Source of the DNA: Eledone cirrhosa
Taxonomy: Eukaryota
Direction of reading: 5' to 3'
Assembly: GCA_964016885.1 (NCBI GenBank)
Contig: OZ024740.1
Span: forward strand, 286,068,001 to 286,132,000
DNA: 64,000 bases
Positions 25,301 through 61,900 of this stretch are shown piece after piece; position 1 is the stretch's first letter; each line of letters starts with the position of its first letter. Below the pieces are notes generated by a model. That model was not told the DNA's origin, did no database searches, and worked only from the letters and a program-made list of their open reading frames with translations. A program made the translations under genes and the position numbers.

Positions 25301-28300
25301 GAAACAAGTACCACCAATCTCTGGGAGGGCTCTGTAGAAACAGTAGACAGCTTCTGCTACCTAGGTGATCGATTTAGCAACGGAGTTGGGTGTTCAGAAA
25401 GTACAATAACTAGGGTAAGAACGGGATGGAAGAAGTTTAGGGAACTACTACCACTGCTAGCTGCAAAAGGCTTCTACCTCAGAATGAAAGGCAGACTGTA
25501 TGATGCGTGTATCCGAACAGCAATGTTGCATGGTAGTGAGACCTGGGCGCTGAAGGTGGAAGACTTACGTAGATTAGAGAGAAACGAAGCCTGCATGCTC
25601 CGATGGATGTGTAACAGTAATATACGTGAACGACAAAGCATAAATGAATTGAGAGAGAGACTGAGCATAAGAGGAATCAAATGCTGTGTGCAGGAGAGGC
25701 GGTTGCGCTGGTATGGACATGTGATGCGTATGAAGGATGACAGCTGCATAAAAAGGTGCAGAGCACTAGAAGTCGATGGAAACCGCGGAGTGGGGAGACC
25801 CAAGATGACCTGGGATGAGGTGATAAAAGCCGACCTTACCCAATTACACCTCTCAAAGGCAATGACACATGACCGTGACTTCTGGCGTCACGCAGTAATA
25901 CAGAGTACCTGACCTCCCATGGGTACAAGCTGAAGCATATAGACAATATGCCCCCACACCCCCCACCGCAAGGTGGTCGTGGAGGTGCCACGGCAAAAAA
26001 GCACCCAGCCCACACTGTAAAGTGGACGTGTAGGCGCCACGAAAAAGCACCCAGCACTCACTGTAAATGAGGTTGGTGTTAGGAAGGGCATCCAGCTGTA
26101 GAAATCAAGCCAAATCAGTTCCTGTATGAGCAAGGCATGGTCAGCCGACCAGACACTGCCCACAACAGGACAACCCATCTAACCCATGCTAGCGTGGAAG
26201 AACGGACGTAAAACGGTGATGATGATGATGAATACAACAGATTAATATTTGAGGTTGGGTGCATTATGTTCAGTTAACTAAATATAGATGAATATTTATA
26301 TAATACTTTATATACAACAAGCATTTTAAGGTCACTTTCCTTGTTAAAGCAGAGGTTAGTATTGCATATAACATAACAACTTTCATACACATCACAGGAT
26401 CCTTTTTGAGGCAGTTTTATGGCTGGATGACTTCCTGTTGCCAAACCTTTTAGTTGACTCTTAGAGATGCAGGGATACAGTATGCTTTACTCTAAACTGG
26501 GTAGACACATAACATATATATTATATTTTATATATGCATATATATTTGTACATGTATGTATTCATGCATGTACAGTTTCATTCAATTAATTCAAATAATG
26601 TTTGGTGTTGTTTGTTTCAGAATTTAGAGAACTTCTAACTGAGAAGAAACGATCAAGTGGCATGAAAGATGAACCAATAAAATTGTATACAGATCATAAA
26701 CAGAGGCTTTCAGCACCTGACTTAGAAGCATCTTTGGCTCCAGCCATTTCTTCTGTAAAAGAGAAGAAAAATGACAAGAAAGAAAGAGGTTTTATGACAA
26801 TGACTTATAAGCCGAAGATCAGGAAGGCTTTGATGAAAATGAATTTTATCCCAAAGCTGAACAGGTTTGTACAGCACCTTATCATTATCACAAATCTGTT
26901 TTCTGGGTCAGATGACTACCTCTTGCTCATACTTTTCATTTTAGCATGGATTCTATGACTGGATCTCCTTCATAATGCCAAATATTTAATGTGTGTACTG
27001 GGTACATTTTATCATGGCATCAACATTAATTTTATAGTTTGAACTGGGTACTGTTTATTTTTATAATGAATATTACCTGTAGGAATCCTCCTCCACTTAC
27101 ACATGCATCTACACTGCTATCTATAAGTAAAATCATGAGGCATGAAAACTGAGATGTGACTTGAAAATCAATTCACTACAAATCATTTAATGAAAAGATG
27201 TTTAAGAACATAGGACAAAATGCAATATTTGTTCTGAATCTATGTGCTATGAGTTCATATCTACTTTGCCCTTATTGTTTTGGCACCAATGAAATTAAGT
27301 ACAAGTCCATTGTGGGCAGGTTGGTATACTTGTTAGAGTGCTGGATGAAATTCCTTGTGTGTGTGTGTTTTCTTTTTTTTTTTTTTTTTGTGTGCTCTGA
27401 CCTACATGAGGTAGATTTAATCCATTCTTCACTCAACATATATAGTTCATATTGTATACCAATACAGCTTTATAATGGTCAGAACCATAACCATTTACTC
27501 ACATTAAAGAACATAGATGTTCATAACCTCATTTTCTCTCTTGTAAGTTAACTCTTTGAGTGCCAAAATAATACTGGTACATTTTTACCTCACACTTTTG
27601 TGTGCTAAATATGTACTGATATGTTTAAGTTTAGTTTGTGAAGTGCAGGTTTAGACAAAGTAAATTTGATTATCATGTAATCCTGGCCTGGAGCAGTAAA
27701 ATACCTGAAACTGTACTGGTGTGCAAAGAGTTGATTTTGCAGGTTTAATGTTCTACATTTAACTCATTTCTATTCATTCTCTACAGATTCTTTTGTTAAA
27801 TTTAAAGTGAACGAAATACATGGATCTTATGAACATTAATTTGATAACTGAAATTCATTTATTTTTATTTCAGCAGTGATAACAGTATGAACCATTCAGA
27901 TGAAAGTTTATATACAAAACCTTCTCGCAAGTCTTCCACATCATCTTCTACCTCATCATCAACTGCTGGAATGTCTAGCCATCTGTCTATCAGCAATCCT
28001 GATTTATCAGTTTCTGGTCTAGCAGATGATCCAAAGACAGACTTTCCGGACCACGTCCTTAAAATCTACCGTTCGGATCAATCCTTCAAATATCTGACAG
28101 TATATCGGGTAAATTTTAGTCTTCATTTATATTTAGAATAACAATTTTATTTTTAGATCTTTTCCTATAAATTTTTTATCAAATAAAAAAAAGTTGTTTA
28201 ATTTTTATTAAATTTATGAATTTATTTTAAAATATAGGAGACTGATTCAAGAACTGTTGTGATGCTGGCATTGCAAGAGTTTGGGATTACTGATCCAAGT

Positions 28301-45830: not shown

Positions 45831-48800
45831 GGAAAAGAGTAAGGACCCCGATGGCTGAGCTCCGGCCATTTCGACAGCTAGATTCGTATATATATATATA
45901 TATATATACACAGAAATGGTTGGGAGGACCCTCAGTTGTGTCAAAAGACATGACAATTTCTCCTGTACTCTCGGTAGAATGTGAGACTATACATAAACAA
46001 GACACAAATCTCTGGCCTGTCTGGGAGATCAGTGGCTTCATTTCAGTACTGATTTGGTCTGTGTGGACCTATCTCACCCTTGCTAACAGGGAAAACAGAC
46101 GTTAAAACGACAATGATGATATAGGTGCGTGTCTGTGTTCATGTATTCAGGTGTAAAACGGTGTTGTCTCTTTCTATCAAAAAGTAACTTAGTAATTCAA
46201 TAAATAGGGATTAATAAAATAAGTATTCTGGTCAATATCTTCAATTTAAAGGTGGTACCAAAGATGGCTGCAGACAAATGACTGAAACCAGTAAAATAAT
46301 ATATCTTGTCTGTTCATTTATTTTAGTTTACATCCTAAGGTAGTTAATTGCTTTTTTAGAATTTTGTTATTTAATCCAGTTGCAAATTATCCATTACAAA
46401 AATATATAGTTTATTTCTAAACACGAAGGAGAGTTAGCTTTTTATAATAAATATAGGTTATTAATCTGTAAGAGAATTCTTAAATGAGTTTAGTTAGTTG
46501 ATGTACTGGGTACTCAACTCACTGCTCTTTTCATTAGATTTACATATCTTCTTTTTTGTTTGCAAAGATCCAAGTTAACTAGGCTAAATTTACTACTTGC
46601 CTCCAATAATGCTTTCTTCTCTAATCTGACCTGCGTGTACCTCTGCTTTGAAAATATACAGCTTTATGCTTCTCCCTTTGATCATTGGGTTTGATAACTG
46701 TTTCCTCCCAAAACTAACTAGATACACAAAAAGAAGTTGCTTATATTATCACTAAATTATGGTAAGTTAGTTAGTGATTATTTCCCCACTTTTTACAGCA
46801 GCTTTTGTTCCCCAAAAATTCATATCTTAGACAGAATTATCATTTCTTTTTTTTTTTTTTTTTTTGATTTGCAGTGAACTGAATTACTTCACATATGCTG
46901 ACAAAATTTTCACAAACGTAAAATGTATTAACCCTTTTGATACAAACCTGTCCCAAACTGCTTCAGTTTTTATGAAACAAAACCACCCATTTTTAAAGGT
47001 TTCCTACTTAAATTAAAATCTTGCAACATAAATTACAAATACCATCTTAATAATGAGACAAAAATGTTAGCAACCCTTTCCAAATTTTTAATTAAAATAC
47101 AGTTTGTTTATTTAGAAATAGTCTTAAAAGAGTTAAAATTGCTTTTAGTACAGTTTCTTGACTGTTACTAGCTTAAGTCAAGCAATCTTGATTTGTAGAA
47201 TTAAGACATCAATGATCTATCATATTCTAATCAATAATTTAGTTATTTATTTTTGTGTTAGTATTCTCAAAAAATACTCTAAAGTAGTATTTATTAATTA
47301 AAAAACTGTGTCTCAAAGAAATCTTTAGTTCTGGTTTAGGGACATTAGTTTTATCTTAATTATACTGGAAGTTACCTGTAGTAACTGTTGCCTTCTAAAA
47401 TAAGATTCTGAGAAATATTCCTGTAGACTCTTGATTTCTTATGTAAAGATTATTTTTATAAGCAATACATACATAATAGAGTTTGATCAATTTCTGTGGG
47501 TTATAATTGAAACTACACCAAGAATACAATTTCTGTGCTGAAGTAACTATTATAGTATAGTGAGTCAATTGATGATGTAACTGCTAATAAATTGTCTTTC
47601 CTTAACATTACAAAAAAACTTAATTGCTGTTCTATAATGCATTTAGTAGTAAAGATGATCACCTGGGCACTGTACACAATATTTCATTATTGTTATTGTT
47701 ATTATATCATGACTCATACACTGTTTATTTTCCTGACATTTGTACATTATTCTATGTACTATACATGCACCTTTGATGAGTTGTAGTGCACCTGAGCACT
47801 GTACACAATAATTTCATTATTATTATTATTATAAATTGTCAACAGTTTGACAAGCTCAGTCTACTGAATGTGAATACGATCTCAAATAGACTGAGTATGT
47901 GTAAGTAGTTAGAGATGCATCAACAGATGAGTAGAAGTGTAAATAAATACTGGTAAAGTGGTTGGTGATAGGAAAGGCATCCAGCTGTAGAAACTATGCC
48001 AAAACCACAATGTATGTAAGCAATACATGGCCCCGAGCCCACCTAACAAGTTAGTAGTTCTAACTAAGTACTAACTTTGTCTGTGATGACATGTCCAACC
48101 CATGCCAACATGGAAGAATGAACATTAAACAGTATGATGAAACAACAGAGAAAATTACAGTGCATCATGCAAATGTTATGGTCCTACATTCAATTTTAAG
48201 GCACTGAGACTGAAATAAAATTAATTTTTTTTAGTTATGGCATCACAGCTTATCTAACATTACATTCCCATTTCAACAAACTCTCTTGTTAGAATTCGAT
48301 AAATTATTTTGTATATCATAAGTATAAATCACCAAATTTCCTTAATTGTGTTAATGGCTATATAATACTCCACATTTGTTTTAAAATATCAAATCAGTTA
48401 ATTCTTTGCTATCTCCAAGACTTCATTATCAATAGAAATAGGAGAAAAAAATTCAGAATATGTCCCTTCCCCTACCAACAGCCTCACTACTTTGTCTATC
48501 TGCATGCTTTTGTTTATTGTAACACTTGCCTTTGCATGAGTGTATTTTTAATCACAAGCAAATAACTGATTTTATATTTACATTTTGTGTTTTTGTTTAA
48601 CTCTAGGTTTTACTTTTTGCTGTACCTTTGCAATTAATATAATATTGAAGCTATGCAATTAACATTATAATACAGCTTTTGCTTTCTATTGCTGAGCTTT
48701 GATAAAAACCATCTAATTGGAAGTTATATTAAAAATATTTAATCTATTTGTGGAAAGCTACCATTTCCTTTTATCATTTTATTTATAAAGATGATAAACC

Positions 48801-51800
48801 TTTGAATAGTTTATGCATGCGTGTGTGCATATGCATAGACATACACACATGCACATACACATTATGTAAATCTTAAGAATTTGCAACCATTATGAATAAT
48901 GTTAAAAGGCATTTTTACAAATATATTCCACCTAGATAAATCATCTTATTAAACAAATAATCAAATGAAACTATGGTTTAAGTATCTCAATATAGTATTT
49001 TGCAACTTGATTCTTAATGAAATTAAAGTTAAACCTCAGAGTAATTATCTTCTATCATTTTCGTTTAGACTTTTTTCTTTCTACAAATATTTAAAAAGTA
49101 ATTTCGTTATTTTATTTTCTGATTCATGCCATAAATGATAACACTATGGACATTTGTATAAGAAAGCAGTGTTTAAAATGATTCTTTAAGCATTGTCATC
49201 TCTCATTGGCTATATGTTACAGGGGAGATAATATAAGTTCAACTAGTCTTTCATCTTGTAAAATATTATAATTATTAACTAAAGATTGCAGTTTAATACT
49301 TTCAATAGTTTTACAATTCGTAATTGTTGAGATGGAAAATTCTGGAACCAATTTTTCTTTTGCACTGTTTTGTTTCTTTAGTCGACTCCTTTTCACATTG
49401 CTTCATCGTATTTTTCCTGATGTCATTTTCACTTAGTTGCAGTGTTTTCTGTCTCATACGTTTTGTCTAAATAGATTAATCTTACTAGTAAAAGTAATTT
49501 TTTTTTATACTAGTAACCAATCTGTGTGTATCTGGTTTAGAATAGATGCATTGTATTCCTGTGTATCATAAGAGGTGACTAAAAGGGTTGATGACAAGAA
49601 GGATATTTGACCATCAAACTTTACCTAAAAACTGTCCCCATATCACAGGGCCTGCAGGGGAAATGGCCTTAAAGTGATTGTTGTTGTTAGTAACCAATCT
49701 AAAAGAAAAAAAAATTAGTATGATTCTTTTTTGAGGTAATAGAATGTATCAGAGTGATGTCCAGAAGACAGGGGTTAATTTATAAAGTTAATAAGGAGAT
49801 TCAGTAAAAACAGAATTAGTACAGAAACTTACTGAGAAATATTTTTGGGGAGTTTTAAAAATTGTACTAGAATAATAATTTTACAAAAGTATTGTAACTA
49901 GGGTTAACTATTTCCTAAATATGATGTCAAACTTTGCAAAATGAACAGTATTTTGTTTATCTACATTTTGAAGAAATCAGTATTACAGATTTTATCCTTA
50001 TTTCAATTATTAGTATGCCTGTATACACACACACATACACACTCTTTTTCTTCTTCGGTGGTTTGTCAAATTGACAATGACAATCCTCTGGTGACTTCTC
50101 CAGGCATGTGCTTACACACACCAAATATTTTCTATAGAGCTTGTGCTATTTTCTATAAGCTATTCACTGCAGATGAAAACAATTTTGGCACTTTTGGAGT
50201 TGTATTATATCCTCCAACAATGCCAATATTACAGCATGCTTTTCTTCTACTTCTACCTTTCTACACTTATCTTTCATCAATGTAGTCACCATGCCAAACC
50301 AGGGTGGGAGAAAGCTGTAGCTGTTTAACTATTCAATGTCTGTCATGTTTTTATTATTAGCTGAGAATAATCTATGTTGTTGGCTCTCAGTTTTGCTCTT
50401 TGTTTCAAATGCTTTTGCAATATTCATGGTGAAGAGTCTTCTACTTCCTTCTACAGTTTACCAATCAATACTCTTGTTTACTGTAAATTCAATTCCAGTG
50501 CATGGCATAGGTCATTGTGGTTCTAGCTGTGAGCCTACAGTATTCCATTTCAATGGGATTATTGTGTCCCACATAACATTTATACTTGTGTATAGATATA
50601 TTTATATACTTGTGTATATATATATATATGTATCTACACACAATGTGATTGGACACACACACACAATGTGATTGAACACAGCTTACCCTTTGTTCCTACA
50701 AAAGTACACTGAAGATTGTTGTCCAAATTCTTCGATACTAACATAAAACCATGGTATAGAAGTAACTACATAACTATATAAATATATACATTTATATATA
50801 AATGTATACATTTATGTATACATGAACATGAGTGTGTGTTTGTCTCGGACCTCTGTGTCATGTGTGACGATGGATCTGCATAAAAAAAAGTTCCTCTCCA
50901 AGACACAAGCTTAGGCAAAGTTTTCTGTAGACAACCAGCAGTTGTTTTTGCATACAAGTCTCCTTTCTCCAGGCCATTGATGTCCAAGAGAAATGTATGG
51001 TCAATACAGCCTGGCCTCAGTGTCTAAAGAGATACTGCAAAGCATCTAGTTCAACTTTCTTATAATTCTGCCAATTCACAGGTCTGGACTGTGTGTCTGT
51101 GTGTGTGTGCATACATTTAAATTATTTAAAGTAAGAAGTAAATAAGTAGATCTTTTGTTGGTTTCGACCAAGAGTATTCCAGTTGTTTAATCAACAGAAA
51201 CTACCAACTCCTTGCATTTGGCAGTATCGGTAGAGGGTCGGACGCGATGCTTTGCAGCAAAGAGTTACGGCCCTTTATGATCTGAGTTCAAATCCTGCTG
51301 AGGTTAACTTTGCCTTTCATCCTTACGGGGTCGATAAAATAAAGTACCAGTAATGCACTGGCCTTGTGCCAAAAGTAGAAACAATTATAGTGTATATGGC
51401 TGAGTATTTGAGTATTCCACAAGCAGTTGTATTCTTAAAGTAGTCCTCATGCTGAATCTTCATGACACAATAGCCCTTTGAATTATAGGTACAATCCATC
51501 CTATGGTCTTCCACACAGCTTCTGCTCCCCAATCTCACTGACAAATATTAAGTTTGACCCAAAATTATGGTAGACACAATGAGCTCAAGCCCAGTACTAT
51601 AGTCAGTCATGCTTATGAAGACACACAAACATGTTCAATTTATCATATGTACTATTTCAAAAATATTTACAGAAATCAAGTCACGTATTGGGTTTGATAA
51701 TGGCTTGTGTACTATTTGTATTTCTCCCCCCCTCCTCCTCTCTCTCTCTTATATATATATATATACATATACATACATGTGTGTATTTAATTCCCTTGTG

Positions 51801-54121
51801 ATTGTTTAGCTGATGTTCATATCTTCTGATGAGAACCTAGTAAGGTTTGAAAATCAATTAAAGATATCATTTTTTTCCCCCTTACAATTTACAAGCAAAT
51901 ACGTAAATTTGACATGTTTACATGTCGAGAGATGCAATGTGTATATATCTATACACATTTATGCAATCTCGGTTACCTCTGTATTGTACTTATACAGATA
52001 CTAACTTATGTATATGTGTGTGTGTGTGATTATAGGAAATTGTTGTCTGAAATTAGATGTTTTCATGTATGACAGCCCGTTGTTGTAGCTGTGAGTTGCA
52101 TTTAGAGTTATTATTGTTATCAGGTTCAATAGGCTCATCTGATTCTGCAAGTCCAACTAGTAGTCTGAACAGCTACCAGCACCAGTACGAAACTGATTCT
52201 GGACACAACAGTATTGCCTCCTCCAACTTTGATAGTCGCAGTACCAGCTCAATTGGCTCATCCAACTCTCCAACTCCAGCTAGACGTATCAATCATGTTC
52301 CACAGAGCGGTAAGGCCTCTCTCTAAAATTATTTCTTAATTTTTGTCATGTGAAAGTTATCACTTCATATATTTTTTATTATTAATATTATTATTATTAT
52401 TATTATTAATATTATTATTATTATTACTATTATTGTTAGGGTAATGAATTGGCAGAATCGTTAGAGCGTCGGATGAGATGCTTTGTGGTATTTCTTCCGG
52501 GTCTTTAAATTCTGATTTTAAACCCTGCTGAGGTCAACTTTGCTTTTCATCCTCCCAGGGTCGATAGAATAAAGTACCAGTCCATTACTGGAGTCGATTT
52601 AATCGACTTTTCCTTTTCGCCAAAAGTCGCTTGCCTTGGGTGGTGGATTGGCAGTATCAGTAGAGCGTCGGACACCATGCTTTGCAGCATAGAGTTACGT
52701 CCCTTTGCATTCTGAGTTCAAATCCCGCCGAGGTTAGTTTTGCCTTTCATCCTTACGGGGTCGGTAAAATAAAGTACCAGTAATGCACTGGGGTCGATTT
52801 AGTCGACTTTCCACTACCTCAAAATTGTTGGCCTTGAGCCAAAATCAGAAACCATTATCATTATCATCATATTTTATTATTTTTATAATTACTATTCTTC
52901 TAATGAATTCTTAATATAGAGGAATATGGTGCTCATAATCATAATTTGCTAATCAATATAGTTTTTTTTCTTTAATTGTTAAAATTTTTCAGGTTAAATT
53001 ATTATATATACAAATGTTTTAATTATTTTTCCCTCTTCAAAAATAATTGTAATATGTTATGTTTGTAGTGGGGTTTTGCATGTCCTATTGTTACATTCAC
53101 TATGTATATTCTTCACCAATGTGAGCAGTTTGAGCAATTTCAACTTTGCTTTGATTTCTACATGTAGTATTTATTTATGAGGTCATGGTGAAAAAGTGTT
53201 GTTGCAAGAAATACAATTATAAAAATATACAAGATATCTCAAATGTCACTAACTATTTCACTATATTTATTGTTATTCAAAATAGCTAGGGACTTTTGAG
53301 ACACTCTGTATGTCTGTATACATATATATCATGTAAGTGTGGAAAGATGAATGTTAATTTATGATGATGATAATGATTATATATATATATATATATATAT
53401 ATACAATAAAGTATGCCTATAGAATCATTTGATAAGATATATACACCATCTCCTCTCCCAATCAGCATAATCAACCACACAAAAAAACAATTAAACCAGG
53501 CTATAAGATTAAAAGGCACCTATGAAGAAATAATAGATAAATAAATGACAGCCATCTATTTGCGATCAACAGCTATAGAATATTTACCCACCATTTCAAT
53601 AGCACGTGGAAATCGATTAAATATATCGTCAACCATACACAATTAGGTATAAAATTAAAGTTAGAAGAAAAAATGTATATAAACATACCAAGATTACGTT
53701 TCTACCCCATGGGGTTTCATTTGCTTTTGGAAATATCCAATCAACGATAGATTCACGAGCTTCGAAATCATCAGGAAACAAACTCACTTGGACGAAGATT
53801 TTTCTTAAATGATCCCCACCAGAAACGAATTCAAAATGGCTAAGAACTGTGACATGGCAGTGGTCAAGTCAGAAAGAATGTGATTGGTGCCTTATGGCGA
53901 GTGGGTTAGTTGCTAGAAAGCGCAGCCTAATATTGCCTAAATTGCATCTCAACCTTATGGGAGATTATCAAATATGAAGATTTACATATACACAAACTAG
54001 ACAAAGTCATAGATATATATATATGTGTTTTTGGCAACCATTCACAATGTGGCTCAATGATGAATTAATTAATTAAATAATCAATAATCAGAGCAATATA
54101 CAATATATGCACACATAGGGA

Positions 54122-54169
<48 letters not shown>

Positions 54170-54422
54170 TCTCTATGTGTGCATATACATGTATGTATGT
54201 ATATGCATGTGTGTATGTATGTATATGCATGTGTGTATGCATGTATATTTATGTATGTATGTATGTATGTATATACACATACAAATGTATATGTATGAGG
54301 GAGCAAGATATTCTGTGTATGTACATACACATGCGCGCACACACTATTTTCTCCACTTTGTCTCCAACACAAAATGTATGAGTTGTCGAAAGGTTCTCTT
54401 TGAGAATTTTTATAATGAATAT

Positions 54423-54453
<31 letters not shown>

Positions 54454-54930
54454 ACGAAGGAAATGTGGTAAGGAACCTGGTGGACCATAACGCACCAAAG
54501 TACTCAATACTTAGGGTAGTAGAGTGGGTAATAGGAACCAGTAAGACCCCGACGGCTGAGCTCAGCCGTCGGGGTCTTACTGGTTCCTATATATATATAT
54601 AAGAACGACACAGTGAGATATTTAACTTATAAGTTAAGACCCAATTAATTGATAGATTGATTAAAGATATGTAATCTTATCCCTTAAATAAAAGTACAAC
54701 ATAATATTTTTTACTTAGTGATATATTGATTACTATAGATGTTAAACTATCTTATATAAAAATATAAACTGATAATGTTTATACCTTAAACTGATATTGT
54801 TTATAGCTAATATCCAGGCCTAACTAAAAGGAACAGGCCAGTAAGCCTATTGGCATGGCCTATAATGTTGTGGGCTTTATTTACTTCACATTCTCTTATC
54901 TTACTTGTGAGGACATAATGTACACTACAA

Positions 54931-54963
<33 letters not shown>

Positions 54964-57900
54964 TCCCGTATGAGCAAGACATGGTCAGCCAACCAGCTAC
55001 TGCCCACAACAGGACAACCCGTCTAACCCATGCTAGAGTGGAAGAACAGACTTAAAACGGAGATGATGATGATATATATATAGCTGTAACCAATACATAG
55101 ATAATATCTATTTAGCACTGATCACTAAAGCAATTTAAAATGTGGCCTACATTGCATATCTAGCCTAGGTTTAATGACTGCTTTGGCAGCCTACATTTTA
55201 CATCTAATTTGGATCTATCACCATAAGCATGGACCTGCTTATGGGGACTATTCTCTTTATTCCTTTCAACCAGGAAATAGGATTAGGAACTGTTTTCCAT
55301 TTGAACTAAATGATGTTACTGAAGAAATTAACAAAATGGTTTTGCAAATATGTTGGTTTGTATGTAATTTCATTGAGCAGTCAGTATCCTAATTGCTGCC
55401 CTTTGATTAATTTAATAAGCCTGTTGCGTTAAAATGTAGGATTTAATATATATAATCTCCTGGGAGACTGCTGCCACAGTAAGAAGAGTAATACATTACA
55501 AAGAAGCTTCCTAATGTCTCCATTGAAACAAAACTGTGAAATGCTGTTTTATGAGCCAGTAGTTCAGCATCTTAATTACTCAGACAGTATGCTGTGTTGA
55601 TTATATTTCTTATTGATAAAACATTGCCATCATTTTACTGTTAAGGGATCAATTTGTGATGTGGGAAGACATTTGAATGAAAATTCAAATTTCTCTTATA
55701 TAATTCAAAGTTTTTATCGGTAAATATATATTTACAAATTGGCAATTTTGTATATAGACAAAAATAATGTTAATTTAATAATCCGAGATGAAGAGAGAGA
55801 ATATATAAATATATTTTTTATATATAACTAGTGAACGAGTACTGTCAGTAATAACAGCAATAGTGTTGAATATATTTAATTTTTCAAGTTCAGGATTGGT
55901 ATGCTATATATACCAGGATTATTGGATATATGAACAATCACACAAACTAACAGATTTGCATTTTGATAAATAATATAGTTTGCATCAAAGAAACCCTATA
56001 GTTTATGTTCATTATTGACACAGAAAGGATTAAAGACAATAATGATTTTTTTAGTAATTTATTTTTAGGATATAATTACATAAATGTTCAGCATACACAC
56101 ACAAATGAGATATATATACTTTTAGAAGTATTTTAGTTTAACCCTAACTTTACATAACATTCATAAATGAAGAAATGTTGCTTTATTTGCCATATTTCTT
56201 TAAAATATTTAAGATCATTTTCATTTAGCTATTGTTTCTAATTTGTTGGGAATAATAATTTGTAACTCTTTATATATTTGTTTATTATTTTTATGTGCAT
56301 ATTTGATGTTTTAAGTTAATATGAAAATTGTTTCATTTTTGTATGAAATGTCTTGATAAATATGACAGTAAATGTTATTTGTTGAATGAGTTTTGGAAAA
56401 TATAAATTTAAAGTTTTCCAGTATATATATATATATATATATTATATAGTTTTAATATAGATGAGATTCTACAGGACTAGAACTGTTTCATTCATTAGAA
56501 ATCATCAGGAATCTGGGTATCAAAAAATAAATATGGTATTTATAGGTCTCTACAAGTGGTAGGAGAGGGTGGGGAGTGGGATGGGTGCAGGTCATTGGTT
56601 GATAGAAAAGGGAATTCATTAAAAGCTAATTCTACAAAGCTATAGTTTATTTTTATTTATTTATGTTTTTAGAGTAACAAGGGCAGACAGAATTCTATAA
56701 ACAGGTTCCGGATGGCATACCAATCCTTGTCATGAATGAAACAGTTCTAGTCCTGTAGAATCTCATCTATATTAAAACTTTTATACTCTGCTATGTATTG
56801 AGTACCTTACTTACTGTGGTTACCTCCGATTCAACCCGGAATAACGTATATATTATATATATATATATCTTGTGTATTGTCTGTTGTAGAACTTAGCTGT
56901 TTAAGTGTTGGTATTTTATTTACTCATATTCATTTGTTTTTGGCAAGTTTATTTGTACTTTTTTCTTTGGTTCTTCTTGGCTGTTGTCTTTGTTAATATC
57001 TGTTTGTTGTCTTATGTTGTCTTTATATCTGTCATTTGTCTCTGTGTACATGTTCACATATTAATGGTTTCTTTTAAGAACGGACATGAAGTGAGGATAA
57101 TTATTTAAACAAAAGGGAGGAATAGGGAGTGGTAGTTTAATTCTAACATTGATTCTATTGCTTTCCTTTTTCTTTCTGACACCCAGTAATTTGAAAATAT
57201 TAACTGCATGCTTCTAATATTAAAACTAAGAACTAAGTTTAATCTTTTACCTGTAGGTAACTATATTATGTATATATATATTTCTTTTTTATATCTCGCT
57301 CTTACAAAAAGGAATACATACACATATACACCACATACTTATATATACACATGAACAACAGGAATTAGAATTTCTTTTTGAAGTGGGGTGGTCTTTCAGT
57401 ATCAATTGTTTACATATTATATATATATATATATATTATAGTTTAAATTTCTGTCATTAATTGTTGTTTGTGGCAGTGCTCCTGCATGGCCAGAACTGCA
57501 ATAATTTAAGTCAATTAAATATTTAAGTATTTTCACAGTAATGGTGACAACTGTGTTTGTCTTGGGCAACTTATTAGTGCTTTTAGTCAGCCATTTTTTT
57601 AGTATCATTTTTTTTTTTATTTTTTATTATTACTTTATTTGCTGCACCACCCTTATCTTAGCAGACCTGTAAAAATTTGAGAAATTTCAACAAAGAAAAA
57701 ATGTTTCATTGATTGTGATTGTAACTAAATTGTTGGTGCTTATTATTATTATTGTTGTTGTTGTTGTTAGGGCGGTGGATTGGCAGTATCGGTTGAGAGT
57801 CGGAGGCCATGCTTTGCAGCATAGAGTTACAGCCCTTTATGATCTGAGTTCAAATATCACCACGGTTAACTTTGCCTTTCATCCTTACGGGGTCGATAAA

Positions 57901-58934
57901 ATAAAGTACCAGTCATGCACTGGGGTCGATTTAATCGACTTTTCCCTCCCCCAAAATTGCTGGCCTTGTGCCTATATAAGAAACCATTATTACATTATTA
58001 TTATTATTTTTTTTTTTTTTTTTTTTACTTGTCTTTTTACTTACCTTTCATCCTTACGGGGTCGATAAAATAAAGTACCAGTAATGCACTGATAATTGCT
58101 GGCCTTGTGCCAAAAGTAGAAACAATTATTATTATTTTTTTTTTTTTTTTACTTGTCAAAGAGAAATTCTGATTCAATTACAGTTAATATGGTTGATAAA
58201 TCTATCATTCTTTTAATTAATGAAGATTTTCAGAAAATAATAGCAACGTTTTTCAGATTGCATTTCTGTAAGTTGTTGATTATTTTTTTTCCTTTTCTCT
58301 TTAGGAATACAATATATATATATATATATCTAATGTCTCTTAAGTCTTTTTCTCAACAGATTTACTTATATTCCAAATCTGGAATTTTTATTTTCATAGA
58401 TGTCCAGCACAGGAAAGGTGGGACATCGAAAACCTTACTGGATATTTGACAAACAAGGGGTAATCACACAAGTTCAATGTTTGTCTGTCTGGTGTCCAGT
58501 ATTAGTTAAAGTGAACCCTTGTATGTACCTTTGTATGTCCAATATTTACATATCACCTGTATGTCTGTGTCTGCTCTACTCCCTCCTTCATCACCTTTGT
58601 TGGTCTTGTGCTTTCTATTTTAGTAGTTAGTTAAGTAGGTCTAACAGCTGTTGATGGAAGAAAAACAACAATAAAAAATAAAAAAAAAACTCAAACGCGG
58701 GATTCAAACAAAGAGACTTCATTATTGAAACTCATTTACTTGCAGCAGTTATTCCAACATTAACGTATCAGGCTCCATCACCACCAGGTATTGTGGCATC
58801 CGTCATGCCACCATCTCCCACCTCTTGTTCGTTTCCCTCTCAAGTACAGCAACCACACCTTGGTACCAACATCCCGCGCCCACCACTGCCACCATACCAT
58901 GTTGCAGTGCAGAGTGCTTCAGTCAACTCTTCAG
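4840..58934 (+). CDS. RAPGEF2: Rap guanine nucleotide exchange factor (PDZ-GEF; RAPGEF2/RAPGEF6 orthologue), 23 coding exons, start and stop exons not found
   Basis: Manual splicing of 23 AG..GT-bounded exons gives one uninterrupted 3403-nt frame. Motifs recognised from RAPGEF2: [99 protein letters not shown](F)[23 protein letters not shown]. Confidence 0.96.
7000..8556 (+). mobile_element. Highly degenerate RTE LINE relic of the same type
   Basis: [17 protein letters not shown], a [11 protein letters not shown] remnant, and an AACCCATGC..GATGAT tail; interrupted by a SINE fragment near 7420-7545. Boundaries approximate. Confidence 0.7.
8586..8962 (+). mobile_element. Older foldback element: about 87-bp inverted arms plus tail, flanked by TA/CA repeats
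   Basis: Arms 8586-8673 and 8690-8776 with a 16-nt spacer; tail starting ACTCTGTGGCTTGAGTA; ends in (TA)n. Confidence 0.5.
10148..10196 (+). ncRNA. Degenerate hammerhead ribozyme, same family as 56464-56514
   Basis: TTTC-CTGATGA-TTTCAACCAAAT-GAAA-CCGTGCTAGTCCTG-TA|GAGG. Core intact, stems weakened; co-linear with the 56.5-kb copy. Confidence 0.6.
10770..10960 (+). CDS. RAPGEF2: RAPGEF2 exon, cNMP-binding-like domain ([18 protein letters not shown]...LTMGN)
   Basis: ttccag|GCG...AACAG|gtaagt; 191 nt, phase 0-2. Confidence 0.95.
11438..11623 (-). mobile_element. tRNA-derived SINE (second family) with a 36-bp target-site duplication
   Basis: Head GGGTGGTGGATTGGCAGTATCGGTAGAG..GAGTTCAAATCC; identical 36-mers at 11402-11437 and 11624-11659. 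Confidence 0.88.
12114..13065 (-). mobile_element. Mariner (Tc1/mariner) transposon relic with transposase pseudogene
   Basis: Minus-strand remnants [48 protein letters not shown]; TIR-like TATGAGGTACACTCAA at the left end; internal tandem duplication of about 86 bp (about 12179-12350). Confidence 0.88.
13589..13706 (+). CDS. RAPGEF2: RAPGEF2 exon, cNMP-like domain ([40 protein letters not shown])
   Basis: ttctag|T...GAG|gtatgt; 118 nt, phase 2-0. Confidence 0.95.
13864..13968 (+). CDS. RAPGEF2: RAPGEF2 exon ([35 protein letters not shown])
   Basis: tactag|GGT...CGC|gtaaga; 105 nt, phase 0-0. Confidence 0.93.
14380..15125 (+). mobile_element. Degenerate RTE LINE fragment (pre-RT region)
   Basis: ACATGGTGGTGGAAT (TWWWN) and GGTGTCATACCCAGTGACTGG (GVIP.DW), similar to 23860-24450. 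Confidence 0.65.
16891..17270 (+). mobile_element. 3' fragment of a second RTE-like LINE family
   Basis: [36 protein letters not shown]; ends in GAAGAAGAA. Confidence 0.75.
18523..18705 (+). CDS. RAPGEF2: RAPGEF2 exon, REM (RasGEF_N) domain
   Basis: ctgcag|GGG...AAG|gttatt; 183 nt; [26 protein letters not shown]. Confidence 0.95.
19229..19336 (+). CDS. RAPGEF2: RAPGEF2 exon, REM domain ([17 protein letters not shown]...)
   Basis: taccag|GTT...GAG|gtaaat; 108 nt. Confidence 0.95.
21719..21922 (+). CDS. RAPGEF2: RAPGEF2 exon, N-terminal part of the PDZ domain
   Basis: ttttag|AAA...CAG|gtattt; 204 nt; [23 protein letters not shown]. Confidence 0.95.
22906..23014 (+). CDS. RAPGEF2: RAPGEF2 exon, C-terminal part of the PDZ domain
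   Basis: tttcag|ATT...TTGG|gtaagc; 109 nt, phase 0-1; [18 protein letters not shown]. Confidence 0.95.
23805..26230 (+). mobile_element. 5'-truncated RTE-clade LINE retrotransposon (RT pseudogene) with a (GAT)n tail
   Basis: TWWWN motif; RT motifs [43 protein letters not shown]; C-terminal GSETW and [10 protein letters not shown]. Stop at 23980-23982, frameshifts near 25055-25090 and about 25320; ends in GATGATGATG. Confidence 0.95.
26621..26864 (+). CDS. RAPGEF2: RAPGEF2 exon, PDZ-RA linker
   Basis: tttcag|AA...AACAG|gtttgt; 244 nt, phase 1-2; EFRELLTEK matches the FKELLT motif. Confidence 0.88.
27874..28108 (+). CDS. RAPGEF2: RAPGEF2 exon, linker and start of the RA domain ([17 protein letters not shown])
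   Basis: tttcag|CAGT...CGG|gtaaat; 235 nt, phase 2-0; NAGNAG acceptor. Confidence 0.92.
28238..28302 (+). CDS. RAPGEF2: RAPGEF2 exon, RA domain ([21 protein letters not shown])
   Basis: atatag|GAG...CG|gtaagt; 65 nt, phase 0-2. Confidence 0.92.
29124..29231 (+). CDS. RAPGEF2: RAPGEF2 exon, RA domain ([24 protein letters not shown]...)
   Basis: ctgtag|A...AG|gtaaat; 108 nt, phase 2-2. Confidence 0.94.
29567..29910 (+). mobile_element. Apparently full-length tRNA-derived SINE with an RTE-LINE-derived 3' tail
   Basis: A box TGGCTTAGTGG, B box GAGTTCAATTC, central TCCTTGAGCAAGACACTT domain, 3' part nearly identical to the LINE 3' UTR (about 25970-26120), (TGA)n end. Confidence 0.88.
30964..31198 (+). 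CDS. RAPGEF2: RAPGEF2 exon, end of RA and start of the CDC25/RasGEF domain
   Basis: tttcag|A TAT TAC...GAA|gtaagt; 235 nt; [24 protein letters not shown]. Confidence 0.95.
31229..32023. mobile_element. Second TTAA-flanked MITE family (CTCTTA...TAAGAG)
   Basis: TTAA|CTCTTA...TAAGAG|TTAA. Shorter relative at 33091-33307; degenerate relatives near 10011 and 62632. Internal tandem duplication of about 85 bp near 31540-31710. Confidence 0.6.
32393..32492 (+). CDS. RAPGEF2: RAPGEF2 exon, RasGEF domain ([26 protein letters not shown])
   Basis: ttccag|CTT...GCAA|gtaagg; 100 nt, phase 0-1. Confidence 0.95.
32932..33059 (+). CDS. RAPGEF2: RAPGEF2 exon, RasGEF domain ([28 protein letters not shown])
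   Basis: ttctag|AA...CTG|gtaata; 128 nt, phase 1-0. Confidence 0.95.
33409..33492 (+). CDS. RAPGEF2: RAPGEF2 exon, RasGEF domain ([20 protein letters not shown])
   Basis: ttgcag|GAT...ATG|gtgagt; 84 nt. Confidence 0.95.
34964..35110 (+). CDS. RAPGEF2: RAPGEF2 exon, RasGEF domain ([32 protein letters not shown])
   Basis: ttccag|TTA...TAT|gtaagt; 147 nt. Confidence 0.96.
35759..35890 (+). CDS. RAPGEF2: RAPGEF2 exon (..[15 protein letters not shown])
   Basis: atttag|GAT...GAG|gtaagt; 132 nt; NAKKMYEE matches the NAKKLYED motif. Confidence 0.92.
36530..36629 (+). CDS. RAPGEF2: RAPGEF2 exon ([26 protein letters not shown])
   Basis: ttacag|GCT...C|gtaagt; 100 nt, phase 0-1. Confidence 0.94.
39077..39277 (+). 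mobile_element. Foldback Penelope-like remnant: 56-bp-arm hairpin plus tail, in (TA)n
   Basis: Arms 39077-39132 and 39137-39192 (4 mismatches, 4-nt loop) carry the hammerhead 3' half GAAACCTTTGGTA; followed by a tail and (TA)n. Confidence 0.6.
39461..39916. mobile_element. pogo/Tigger-like MITE (TA TSD)
   Basis: TA|CTCTATATACTCGTATATAAGCTGA...TCGGCTTATATTCAAATATATACTG|TA; second copy at 60213-60694 with a similar interior. Confidence 0.65.
41491..41743. mobile_element. piggyBac-type MITE (TTAA TSD, CCCTTT TIRs), multi-copy family
   Basis: TTAA|CCCTTTCGACACCA...TGGTAACAAAAGGG|TTAA. Related copies at 306-553, about 5190-5415, about 15575-16010, 40854-41302 and about 46930-47130. Confidence 0.75.
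41951..42055 (+). CDS. RAPGEF2: RAPGEF2 exon, C-terminal low-complexity region ([12 protein letters not shown])
   Basis: tttcag|CA...TTTG|gtatgt; 105 nt, phase 1-1. Confidence 0.85.
44683..44904 (+). CDS. RAPGEF2: RAPGEF2 exon ([15 protein letters not shown]...LSHESSSV)
   Basis: tcccag|GT...ACTG|gtaaga; 222 nt, phase 1-1; SP.A.RK.L.LS motif recognised from PDZ-GEFs. Confidence 0.9.
45443..45646. repeat. Degenerate inverted repeat (about 77-bp arms) starting in (TA)n
   Basis: ATATAGTAAAAAC..TCAATACACC..TACAATAATT pairs with AATTATTGTA..GGTGTATTGA..GTTTTTACTATAT. Confidence 0.55.
51819..51867 (+). ncRNA. Minimal type I hammerhead ribozyme
   Basis: ATATCTT-CTGATGA-(GAACC TAGTAA GGTTT)-GAAA-A TCAA T-TA|AAGATAT: 7-bp stem I, 5-bp stem II, minimal stem III with a near-palindromic loop. 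Confidence 0.75.
52124..52309 (+). CDS. RAPGEF2: RAPGEF2 exon, Ser-rich, containing DSGHNS
   Basis: tatcag|GT...AGCG|gtaagg; 186 nt, phase 1-1; DSGH..S..FDS motif. Confidence 0.88.
52438..52860 (+). mobile_element. Two tandem/nested copies of the second SINE family
   Basis: Repeated TTGGCAG..GAGCGTCGGA..TTTGC(C/T)TTTCATCC..AAAGTACCAG..GGCCTTG units. Other copies at about 4310-4640, 21300-21420(-), 23090-23420 and 51220-51390. Confidence 0.85.
54125..54452. repeat. Compound (TA)n/(TATG)n microsatellite block
   Basis: Directly visible; the overlapping ORFs here are low-complexity artefacts. Confidence 0.9.
54453..54590 (-). mobile_element. Foldback Penelope-like remnant with a perfect 60-bp palindrome plus tail, in (TA)n
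   Basis: 54531-54590 is a perfect palindrome; the adjacent tail has the GTATTGAGTAC motif; (TA)n on both sides. Confidence 0.6.
56422..56868. mobile_element. Penelope-like element remnant with an inverted partial pLTR and a tail, between (TA)n tracts
   Basis: 56448-56495 and 56732-56779 are exact 48-bp inverted copies overlapping the hammerhead. Only the right copy continues into a roughly 70-nt tail. (TA)n on both sides. Confidence 0.7.
56464..56514 (-). ncRNA. Type I hammerhead ribozyme (Penelope-like-element type)
   Basis: Minus strand: AGATTC-CTGATGA-T(TTC TAAT GAA)T-GAAA-(CAG TTCTAGTC CTG)-TA|GAATCT. Intact core, 6-bp stem I, 3-bp stems II and III, GUA cleavage triplet. Confidence 0.82.
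57771..58128 (+). mobile_element. Second-family SINE plus an adjacent 3' fragment
   Basis: GGCGGTGGATTGGCAGTATCGG..GAGTTCAAAT..CTTACGGGGTCGATAAAATAAAGTACCAG..(ATT)n. Confidence 0.85.
58746..58934 (+). CDS. RAPGEF2: RAPGEF2 exon, Pro-rich with a PY-type motif ([13 protein letters not shown])
   Basis: ttgcag|CA...TCAG|gtgaga; 189 nt, phase 1-1; NAGNAG acceptor; GC-rich island in an AT-rich intron. Confidence 0.85.
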
Positions 58935-61900
58935 GTGAGACTTCGGAATCATAGGTATTCTCCAAGTACTAACTTGCAAAGCTACATAGAAATACATTTT
59001 TCCTAAAATCATTTCTTGGAATCAGTTTATTTATTTCGTTTAAAGATATTTGCCTCCATTAATTGCTCTAAAAATTGGGGAAATTGAGGCCGGGTATATA
59101 TATATGAAATATACATGATTTATAATGAAGAAGAGAAAAAAGTACTCAATATATAGTGCAGAGTATAATTATTTAAATTGGACTGAAGCTGTATACTATT
59201 ACTTAAATGTCATGTTTACACAATTAGCTAGACACTAGTAGGGTGTACTACAATGAAGTGTTCTTTTATCCAAGATAGTGTTGAAACATTATTTCATTGG
59301 TTAACTCAAAACATACAAATGATTTTGTTTGACTTCATAATGAAATTCTCAAAACAAAAATTAGCCAAAATGATTTGCTAAAATAATTTTTGTTTAAGTT
59401 GCTAGTAAAGGTTTCCATGTGGGTTTCCTGGTACCCCTTGTCAACGTTACATGATGAATGTAAGAACATTTTTTTGAAAGGGGAAATATGACTACTTATA
59501 CAAAGTTAATATTTCGACTCGTTAAGTCTTATCTTACTCTGTGAGTCACCTGCAGATTGAGGGTTTAGCCAGTTTGCAGTTTTAGAGCAGGATTATGCTT
59601 ATGGGGTTGAAGTTTGAATTTCTTTGCATGGAGGCACGACAAGATTTTGTCTCTCTTGTTCAAGATGCAACCATATGCACACAGATAATGGCTACAGGAC
59701 TGGTGTGTCTTTGCAACATTTTGGTGTTGTTTTCTACTCTATATTTCAAATGTCAAATATCTTATTTTTGACATTGAATATTACAGTGCACTTGTATCTA
59801 AACATGGTCTGTGTTAACCAATTAAATAGTAAGACCTTGGTATTATCTTGGATAATGAAAATTTAATTATAGTACACAATACTGCCATCTGAGTGTAAAT
59901 ATGAAACTTTAGTAACAACATTGACTTCAGTCGAATAAATGTACATATATATTTATATATATATATATTCAATGTACAAACAAGAGAAAAAGTACTTGAT
60001 ACATGTAGAGTTTATTTGTTTGAAGCTAATGCTTTACTCATGATCACTCACAGTTTCTTGCTGTGTATGATCATTCTAGTGATATCTATTTGTTCCTTGA
60101 AGGATCACACACAGCTAGAAACATTAAATCATACTGTGGGAGAGTAGTAACATTATTACTTGGAGTTTCACCAAATAGTTTTGTAATATCTCTATGAGAG
60201 CTATAAGATTTACTGTATATACTCATATATGTCGAGAAGTATGTGACAAAAAATTGATGGTAAAATGAGGGTTCATGGTCAATATTTTGATTTTCACTAA
60301 CATCAAATTCTTCGTAAATGAGGTTCAAAAATAGTTTCACTTTGTAGGTGAATATTACACCGGTTTCACTTTGGAGGTGAAATTTGTTTTTCCTATTGTG
60401 TTTTATGTGTATTGACTGAATATGGCCCTCAAATGATCAAAAATTGGTTTTTAAAAAGAAAAAAAAATCATTATGTAATGGAATTATGAAACAAAACTAT
60501 ATACTTAATGATAGCTAAAAGATTTAAAATATCAAAATATTAAAACTTTGTGAGAATTTCAAAACTGCACTATTTAAACATAATGTGTTGATTAGCTGCC
60601 TTAGCTTATACACATGGTTTGAATTTTTGCTAATTTCTCATGACATAAGATTGGGGGCTTATACTTGGAACAATTTATATTTGAGTGTATACAATAAATC
60701 ATTTGGATCTTGAGACAATTATACACATCATATCATATATGTGTTCACTTTGAAAGGGCATGCTTCCTGTCATGCAGATGCAAAGACATTGAAGTATGCC
60801 TGCGTGAACATATTCATAGGAATTTTAAACAGCAAGTTTATGGAGTGACATCCAAATCACACAGTTTCATCATCATCGTCATTACCATTTAACATTTATT
60901 TCCTATGCTTGCATACCAGATATCTAAATACATCTGGTGGCTGAGAGAGAATAACATGGAAGATATCAGAGAAAAGCAAACCATTCAAAAAGGTTACATG
61001 ACGCGGTCACTGCTACTTTTTGTGTAGTTAGTAACTTCAATTTTTATTGACAAATCTTTATTTGCTCTAAAAACTGTCGTTCAGCTGACACAAGGGAAAT
61101 AACCTATAGCCTTAGACGTGAATTATTTCCCCTGCATTATATTGTACATGGCAGAAAGCAACCATTTTCAAAATGAATATGTAAATGACTTAATGTGTAT
61201 ATTATTGGTCGTTTGAAGATTCAAATGGTTTAAATTTAATAACTCTCAGAGATATGTAACTATTTGCTGAAACTAACAACATTACTAGTTCTAGAGGCTA
61301 TATAAATCATATACTTCACTCTACTTTGTATCAAGTACTCTCCTTGTGTCATGTAATTTCTATTTCTATATGTATATGTATATATATACATACACACGCA
61401 TATATGTGTGTGTTTGTATTATTAATACACACATATATATATATACTGCTAATTGTCATTCTTCATTTTGGTTTTTAAATTATTGCTATTTGAGAATATG
61501 ATTAATTATTGCTTGATGTGTGAAGTAGTTTAACTTTAAATTTATTTTGGAAGTCACTAACCAGCTTCATTCTTTTAGGAATCAATCATTGCATCTAGAT
61601 TTCAATAATACTGTTGTGCTTCCATCATTTAGTCCTATATACAATAATGGTGGTGGTGCGTAAATCTTTTCACTGGGCCTTGAACCAGCAACTGTGTGGT
61701 AAACTGTTATCATTTAGATTATTGCCATAATTCTGATAACTAACTTCATCTGTGGCTGTTGGTGCTCACCGCATGTATGTAATCCTGGATGGCTTTCATT
61801 TACATTTGGAGTTGAAGCATTTTCATTATATTTAAAACATTGGCTATTTTGTTTTTCTTAAAATCATAATAGAAAACCATGCTGAATAGTTGGTGATAGG

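What the first reader, a model, noticed from the sequence alone, without database searches (positions are those of the whole stretch)
54531..54590. Perfect 60-bp loopless palindrome centred on the hammerhead stem III loop
Seen: ATAGGAACCAGTAAGACCCCGACGGCTGAG|CTCAGCCGTCGGGGTCTTACTGGTTCCTAT is a perfect palindrome. The related non-inverted copy at 45831-45886 shows that its centre GAGCTC lies in the loop of hammerhead stem III (GAAA-TGGC-CGGAGCTCA-GCCA-TC|GGGGTC), and each arm keeps the GUC|GGGGUC cleavage site. Inference: the foldback occurred at the ribozyme's palindromic loop, suggesting ribozyme hairpins prime cDNA self-annealing or template switching during PLE integration. Such palindromes can also form cruciforms and perfect dsRNA.
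Basis: partly seen in the sequence, partly recalled or inferred. Interest (0 to 1): 0.72.

Follow-up and report, generated by a model that had tools for sequence, protein, structure and literature searches.

The report
Palindromic Penelope stub joined by microhomology
This perfect mirror-image stretch is the seam of a tiny, very common insertion of a Penelope-type jumping gene in an intron; most sister seams lie about 25-35 bases further along and favour neither arm, so it likely formed when two separately primed DNA copies were joined at a self-complementary word, not by a ribozyme hairpin folding back.

Summary
The 60-bp palindrome is real. It is the head-to-head seam of a 135-bp stub of a Hydra-like Penelope element inside a (TA)n tract in a RAPGEF2-like intron. 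One arm carries the 3' tail (+98 from the hammerhead cut); the other ends at the internal site (+20). No ribozyme core remains. The centre does lie in loop III, and stem-loop III seams recur: 118 loopless and 193 loop-keeping loci. They are minor beside 22,417 tail ends. In 100 position-picked copies, 0 of 73 inverted pairs join at loop III, while 48 have both arms ending at -55..-33, mode -41/-40. The longer arm is tail-less as often as tailed (34:25; 21:24 in the stem-III class), which single-strand fold-back cannot give. Best reading: two primed cDNAs run to a fixed stop, likely the RNA 5' end, and are end-joined; here through the loop's 8-nt palindrome. Inverted tailed PLE pairs are known; this scan reached the same reading earlier on other DNA of this genome.

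The parts
54427..54452 (.). (TA)n target tract, left side
   Evidence: sequence
54453..54564 (-). Tail-bearing arm in element sense: from loop III (-14) through the cut site, the internal start (+20) and the 78-nt tail to +98; antisense to the host gene
   Evidence: L003: A -14; tail end + TA motif has 22,417 exact matches; the tail continues into the ORF in L032
54557..54564 (.). 8-nt self-complementary microhomology (loop III word) shared by both arms: the seam
   Evidence: gap -8; longest palindromic word in -60..+20 in 3 of 3 reference copies
54557..54590 (+). Inverted tail-less arm, -14 to +20, ending at the internal start site; last 3 nt shared with the TA tract
   Evidence: 64 of 65 automatically called inverted arms end here in TA
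54531..54590 (.). Perfect 60-bp palindrome (overlap of the two arms)
54588..54601 (.). (TA)n target tract, right side
   Evidence: sequence; flank-to-arm join seen in contigs of 3 runs of one sample
45831..45886 (-). Solo tail-less stub of another subfamily, about -37 to the internal start, between TA tracts; an internal-site end with no inverted partner
52312..58741 (+). Host intron of a RAPGEF2-like gene (approximate bounds between exon hits 52120-52311 and 58742-58936)

Best explanation
The palindrome is the seam of a short head-to-head insertion of a Penelope-like retroelement in a (TA)n tract, likely made by two separately primed cDNAs that were joined through the 8-nt self-complementary word in hammerhead loop III. 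Steps: (1) inferred, with the Anolis PAc system as precedent: both strands of the TA tract are nicked and each primes reverse transcription, one at the tail end (+98) and one at the internal site (+20), both with TA-like microhomology; (2) shown: both copies usually stop at one edge near -41; inferred: this edge is the RNA's 5' end; (3) shown: the arms nearly always share subfamily markers; inferred: one RNA or one source locus serves both; (4) inferred: the two 3' ends are end-joined blunt, with filler, or by microhomology after trimming. This copy used the longest microhomology on offer, which gives a loopless palindrome. The ribozyme supplies a sticky word; it is not the engine.
For: Two fixed outer ends: tail + TA 22,417; 64 of 65 inverted arms end at +20 in TA; solo tail-less copies exist (45831; several of 30), as do tail-less/tail-less pairs (L195, L246) and tail/tail pairs (L024, L056, L043). 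Hard edge: 53 of 73 tailed arms, 57 of 73 inverted arms and 6 of 27 unpaired arms end at -55..-33, mode -41/-40; only 2 of 173 ends lie between -47 and -55. L127 stops at -40, resumes inside the ORF and stops again at -37. Symmetry: tail-less arm longer in 34, tailed arm in 25, 14 unclear; 12 vs 14 (4 unclear) of 30 in the commonest junction; 21 vs 24 of 50 in the stem-III class. In 8 of 73 the arms do not overlap at all; L048, L094, L097 and L119 have tail-less arms 0.6-1.4 kb longer than the tailed arm. Junctions of 68: 18 microhomology >=2, 10 of 1 nt, 16 blunt, 24 with filler. PAc nicks and extends both strands, starts at two sites that bound the tail, is predicted dimeric, and needs no HHR cleavage (PMC11167929).
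Against: No RNA evidence that -41 is a transcription start. The cap-G test is weak: 11 G vs 4 A among non-reference bases, and 4 of the G can come from the partner arm. The TATA-like word at about -70 is absent in subfamily E. Some arms match the reference to -45/-46 or -52. For this one symmetric locus, sequence cannot tell two-cDNA annealing from later collapse of a longer pair. Marker concordance (2, 7, 2 discordant of 109 pairs vs 56, 70, 50 if drawn independently) also fits copying of one arm from the other. 20 of the 100 junction calls were corrected by hand. The sample covers only the first 27 Mb of one contig.
Confidence: 0.66

Rival explanations
1. Hairpin self-priming (first reader; also the self-priming idea in PMC3846280): one tail-primed cDNA folds back at stem-loop III and copies itself out to +20.
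For: 193 loci have exactly the product expected from a stem III hairpin with its loop kept; arms share markers; palindromes at inverted junctions were read as self-priming in Adineta.
Against: The loop is on the tail-less arm in 21 of 45 classifiable loci. The tail-less arm is longer in 34 of 73 and does not overlap the tailed arm in 8. A loopless centre suits two-molecule annealing better (inference). The +20 end exists without any fold-back.
Confidence: 0.1
2. Later collapse: the copy inserted as an ordinary longer pair (seam near -41) and was then shortened by deletion between the repeated loop III words across the unstable palindrome centre.
For: It gives the same sequence and the same arm symmetry; both words occur as direct repeats across a longer pair; DNA-level pairing fits; deletions between direct repeats occur within arms (L055, L099, L122).
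Against: Short-seam classes are not older: median tail divergence 1.3%, 1.3% and 1.4% in 14, 47 and 28 loci, p 0.99 (weak, all picked by exact patterns). This copy's 109 nt are identical to two other loci, so it is young. It does not replace the two-primer origin of the pair.
Confidence: 0.18
3. Two-primer origin holds, but the -41 edge is a reverse-transcriptase block or an RNA cut in hammerhead loop II, not a transcription start.
For: The edge lies 4-7 nt beyond the stem II 3' strand in all subfamilies; ends spread over -33..-46; no cap proof.
Against: A short initiator-like word (resemblance recalled) is kept at -43..-39 while its neighbours diverge. Long T-runs abut -41/-44 (L024, L057, L113), as expected from additions at a template end. 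Arms that pass the edge mostly run far (11 of 173 beyond -55). D. virilis Penelope starts inside its pLTR (PMC2377424).
Confidence: 0.25
4. Assembly artefact.
For: No listed read contig spans the centre.
Against: 118 loci share the centre; 15 of 15 examined have distinct flanks and the family's normal layout; there is a continuum of related junctions.
Confidence: 0.03

Closest known systems
Hydra clade of C-terminal-endonuclease Penelope-like elements (Craig et al. 2021, PMC8557442; e.g. Hydra-1_Obim)
   Same: DKT motif, CxCX5C linker, CxxC and CxH motifs, RT motifs matching the paper's Hydra alignment by eye, (TA)n target, hammerhead in the pLTR.
   Different: RWR instead of RWK; unit 3639 bp vs generally under 3 kb; hammerhead unlike that of Hydra-1_Obim (long stem II, 6-bp stem III, U3-A8 core, or C3/A8 mismatch in one subfamily); at least 22,417 tail ends. 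No tree was built.
Inverted partial pLTR with one-sided tail in EN+ PLEs (PMC8557442 Fig. 2; Adineta Pen families, PMC3846280)
   Same: Head-to-head 5'-truncated inverted copy, tail on one side, palindromes at the junction.
   Different: Here most insertions are 150-230-bp stubs with a sharp common stop; the tail is 78 nt vs 30-40; the data favour two primers over the self-priming proposed there.
PAc Poseidon in vitro (Frangieh et al. 2024, PMC11167929)
   Same: Two reverse-transcription starts bounding the tail; AT-rich target; hammerhead cleavage not needed (only 9 of 173 arm ends lie within -6..+5 of the cut).
   Different: PAc starts were reported as non-homologous to the target; here both starts share TA-like bases with it. 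The passages read do not model the inverted pairs.
L1 twin priming and dual priming (Meyer et al. 2010, PMC2837659)
   Same: Both nicked strands prime cDNA, giving an inverted arrangement with little or no microhomology at the inner junction.
   Different: L1 twin priming gives non-overlapping fragments with an internal deletion and a variable second start. Here both starts are fixed, the arms usually overlap, and the event is the rule (73 of 100).

Membership tests
EN+ Penelope-like element | Single ORF with RT and C-terminal GIY-YIG endonuclease | tested here: met
   Frameshifted ORF pieces in L032 and L034 match the Hydra PLE alignment by eye; Pfam found 0 families in 4 of 4 pieces; 11,162 unnamed relatives.
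EN+ Penelope-like element | Partial tandem forming pLTRs that overlap the ORF start | tested here: met
   L032 holds a 1634-bp direct repeat, and the tail reads into the ORF.
EN+ Penelope-like element | Inverted 5'-truncated copy and one-sided tail | tested here: met
   73 of 100 copies have an inverted partner; 64 of 65 called inverted arms lack the tail.
Hydra clade | DKG changed to DKT | tested here: met
   L032 and L127.
Hydra clade | RWK motif | tested here: inconclusive
   RWR in L032, L034, L028, L127 at the homologous place.
Hydra clade | CxCX5C linker; CxxC and CxH motifs; CCHH absent | tested here: met
   Full linker in L076, last Cys replaced in L032 and L034; CxxC and CxH present, no Cys pair inside the GIY-YIG core, by eye.
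Hydra clade | Insertion into (TA)n | tested here: met
   (selects for TA, 8 does not).
Hydra clade | Generally under 3 kb (typical, not strict) | tested here: not met
   Unit 3639 bp in L032.
Hydra clade | Groups with Hydra RTs in a phylogeny | not tested
   The reference proteins were seen only in the paper's supplement.
Type I hammerhead ribozyme (full element) | Three helices around the core, with covariation | tested here: met
   89.4% of cells paired; 4 pairs with two-sided change (65/500 shuffles reach this; 0/500 reach the covariation score; related sequences). L076 folds into the three-way junction; the other 3 long copies do not in their best fold. No Rfam hammerhead hit.
Type I hammerhead ribozyme (full element) | Intact catalytic core | tested here: inconclusive
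   U3-A8 covariant core in subfamilies A and C (a known PLE variant, PMC4209133); C3/A8 mismatch in B.
Type I hammerhead ribozyme (full element) | Self-cleavage | not testable with these tools
   Needs an in vitro assay.
Type I hammerhead ribozyme (the window copy) | Core, stem II and GAAA present | tested here: not met
   Both arms stop at -14.

The most novel reading that the evidence does not exclude
Penelope-like elements insert by obligatory two-primer reverse transcription from two fixed starts near the RNA's capped 5' end, making retrovirus-like strong-stop cDNAs. Joining the two stops head to head leaves the palindromic stubs that make up most copies here; jumping from the stop to the RNA's 3' repeat makes long and partial-tandem copies. 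This would explain inverted pLTRs, the one-sided tail and partial tandems with one mechanism.
Probability: 0.5. Interest if true: 0.68.

Novelty: new member of a known kind. Interest (0 to 1): 0.4.

Why it matters
The locus itself is ordinary: one of at least 118 identical seams in a very abundant family. The family's junction statistics bear on an open question that PMC8557442 and PMC2377424 both name: how Penelope-like elements form inverted and partial-tandem structures. They argue against self-priming and for two primers with a fixed stop, which is testable in the existing in vitro system. Thousands of short near-perfect hairpins, some in introns as here, are also a likely source of double-stranded RNA and cruciform DNA (not tested).

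Tried and rejected
No RNA holder listed, so no test of the start site or of expression. Read laying gave contigs only, none listed across the centre. Rfam found no hammerhead in the window or in 5 loci; the hits were TA-driven miRNA noise. Pfam missed the element's ORF pieces. TATA box at -70: dropped, because it is absent in subfamily E and overlaps stem II. Cap-templated G: inconclusive. A splice acceptor at -39/-34 as the cause of the edge: rejected, because upstream sequence differs among copies. Ribozyme-cut RNA as the main template: rejected, 9 of 173 ends near the cut. Two unrelated RNAs as the rule: rejected by marker concordance; L012 is an exception. Age test for later collapse: no difference. 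The first junction callers over-extended at a quasi-palindrome and were replaced plus 20 hand corrections. Literature searches listed no paper applying twin priming or strong-stop to PLEs; I saw listings only for most, and subscription papers are not covered.

Full report
Observation. 54531-54590 is a perfect palindrome with 30-nt arms, unmatched in the window. It sits between TA tracts with 78 extra bases on the left, in an intron of a RAPGEF2-like gene on the + strand; the best homologues are octopus proteins at 94% identity, with exon hits at 52120-52311 and 58742-58936. Coordinates below are relative to the hammerhead cut (-1 is the last base before it).

What it is. A search with the left 109 nt gave near-identical copies across the 3.0-Gb genome; the tail end plus TA has 22,417 exact matches, control 0. 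Long copies lead into a frameshifted ORF in L032, arranged as a partial tandem with a 3639-bp unit. Its motifs match the Hydra clade of Penelope-like elements: DKT, CxCX5C (complete in L076), CxxC, CxH, with RWR for RWK. Pfam missed it, and no tree was built. The pLTR holds a type I hammerhead: 89% of cells paired and 4 compensated pairs in 13 distinct rows, with a U3-A8 core in two subfamilies, a known PLE variant (PMC4209133), and a C3/A8 mismatch in a third. Rfam did not detect it. The window copy has a tailed arm (+98 to -14, minus strand) and an inverted tail-less arm (+20 to -14) sharing the 8-nt loop III word. Neither arm keeps the core, so it is not a ribozyme.

Where seams fall. I took the first 100 places listed (99 fetched, one already held; first 27 Mb of contig C1), called junctions by script and corrected 20 by hand. 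73 have an inverted partner. In 48 of 73 both arms end at -55..-33, in 62 at least one does, and in none do both end in loop III. The mode is -41/-40; 2 of 173 arm ends lie between -47 and -55, and 11 run beyond -55. Unpaired copies (6 of 27) and a second subfamily show the same edge (the latter set was picked by similarity to a copy ending there). Whole-genome exact counts: loopless loop III palindrome 118, stem III with its loop kept 193, perfect palindromes at two other 4-nt words 112 and 102, one edge junction 1156. The patterns differ in length and subfamily cover, so these are rough ratios. Stem-loop III is thus a real secondary seam, roughly 1-2% of tail ends, not the main one.

Fold-back or two primers. 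If one tail-primed cDNA folded back, the tail-less arm could never hold sequence missing from the tailed arm. It does in 34 of 73 pairs; the reverse holds in 25, and 14 are unclear. In 8 the arms do not overlap, and in L048, L094, L097 and L119 the tail-less arm is 0.6-1.4 kb longer. In the commonest junction the longer arm is tailed in 14 and tail-less in 12 of 30. In the stem-III class, the very product a hairpin would give, the loop is on the tailed arm in 24 and on the tail-less arm in 21 of the 50 listed loci. A variant that is a G.U pair in RNA but a mismatch in DNA is depleted from that class (2 of 50 vs 12 of 50), which points to DNA-level pairing. The +20 end also occurs alone (45831-45886) and on both sides (L195, L246). 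Against a simple reading: arms share subfamily markers almost always (2, 7 and 2 discordant of 109 filtered pairs; background 2.6%). So both cDNAs come from one RNA or one source locus; this result alone would also fit copying.

Mechanism. The Anolis PAc protein nicks and extends both strands, starts at two sites that bound the tail, and does not need hammerhead cleavage (PMC11167929). I infer the same here, with both cDNAs running to a fixed stop and being end-joined: 18 of 68 junctions have microhomology of 2 or more, 10 have 1, 16 are blunt, 24 have filler. The stop is likely the RNA's 5' end. An initiator-like word (resemblance recalled) is conserved at -43..-39; T-runs abut it; L127 stops at -40, resumes in the ORF and stops again at -37; and D. 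virilis Penelope starts within its pLTR (PMC2377424). This step is unproven: the cap-G test was weak, the TATA-like word is not conserved, and some arms reach -46 or -52. For this one locus, later collapse of a longer pair cannot be excluded, though short-seam classes are no older.

Known versus new. Inverted, one-tailed PLE insertions and junction palindromes are known (PMC8557442, PMC3846280), as is twin priming for L1 (PMC2837659). Six literature searches listed no paper joining these for PLEs. My reading was noted before the look-up; earlier unreviewed notes of this scan reached the same one on other DNA of this genome, which is not independent support.

Papers seen: PMC11167929, main text and start of methods (parts 1-2 of 4); PMC4209133, parts 1-2 of 4; PMC8557442, passages, section 11 and supplement passages; PMC2377424, passages and section 15; PMC3846280, PMC2837659, 10.64898/2026.07.22.740005 and 10.1101/2024.12.14.628481, passages only (preprint supplements not seen); all others, search listings only.

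Verdict: observation confirmed; interpretation partly supported; new member of a known kind; interest 0.4.

Noticed in passing
window 4852-58936 (+): At least 22 exon hits of a RAPGEF2-like gene; both Penelope stubs are intronic, so the palindrome would form a 28-bp hairpin in the pre-mRNA.
   Followed up: partly
window 54107-54184: A second near-palindrome: about 17-nt unique arms around a (TA)n tract, 350 nt left of the finding; origin unexplained.
   Followed up: no
window 23983-25912: Broken LINE-type reverse transcriptase ORF (Pfam RVT_1, E 2e-27).
   Followed up: partly
window 12243-12566 (-): Fragment resembling a mariner transposase (resemblance recalled; no Pfam hit at 0.01).
   Followed up: partly
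window 51208-52884, 57770-58150, 23081-23373, 11470-11653: Dispersed SINE-like family in both orientations (repeat families D5, D6, D8, D11).
   Followed up: no
L055, L099, L122: Inverted arms with clean internal deletions between short direct repeats spanning stem III and GAAA: template skipping or later slippage.
   Followed up: no
L012: The two arms differ at two subfamily markers and the seam is duplicated: a likely two-RNA (dual priming) event.
   Followed up: partly
L014, L037, L094 (subfamily B): Abundant subfamily with a C3/A8 mismatch in the hammerhead core, predicted to be weak or dead, yet successful.
   Followed up: no
L009/L061/L062, L052, L079, L109: Pieces of other Hydra-like families beside these insertions; copies nest in each other's TA tracts.
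   Followed up: no
L031:720-2239: Young 36-bp-unit tandem array open in several frames.
   Followed up: no
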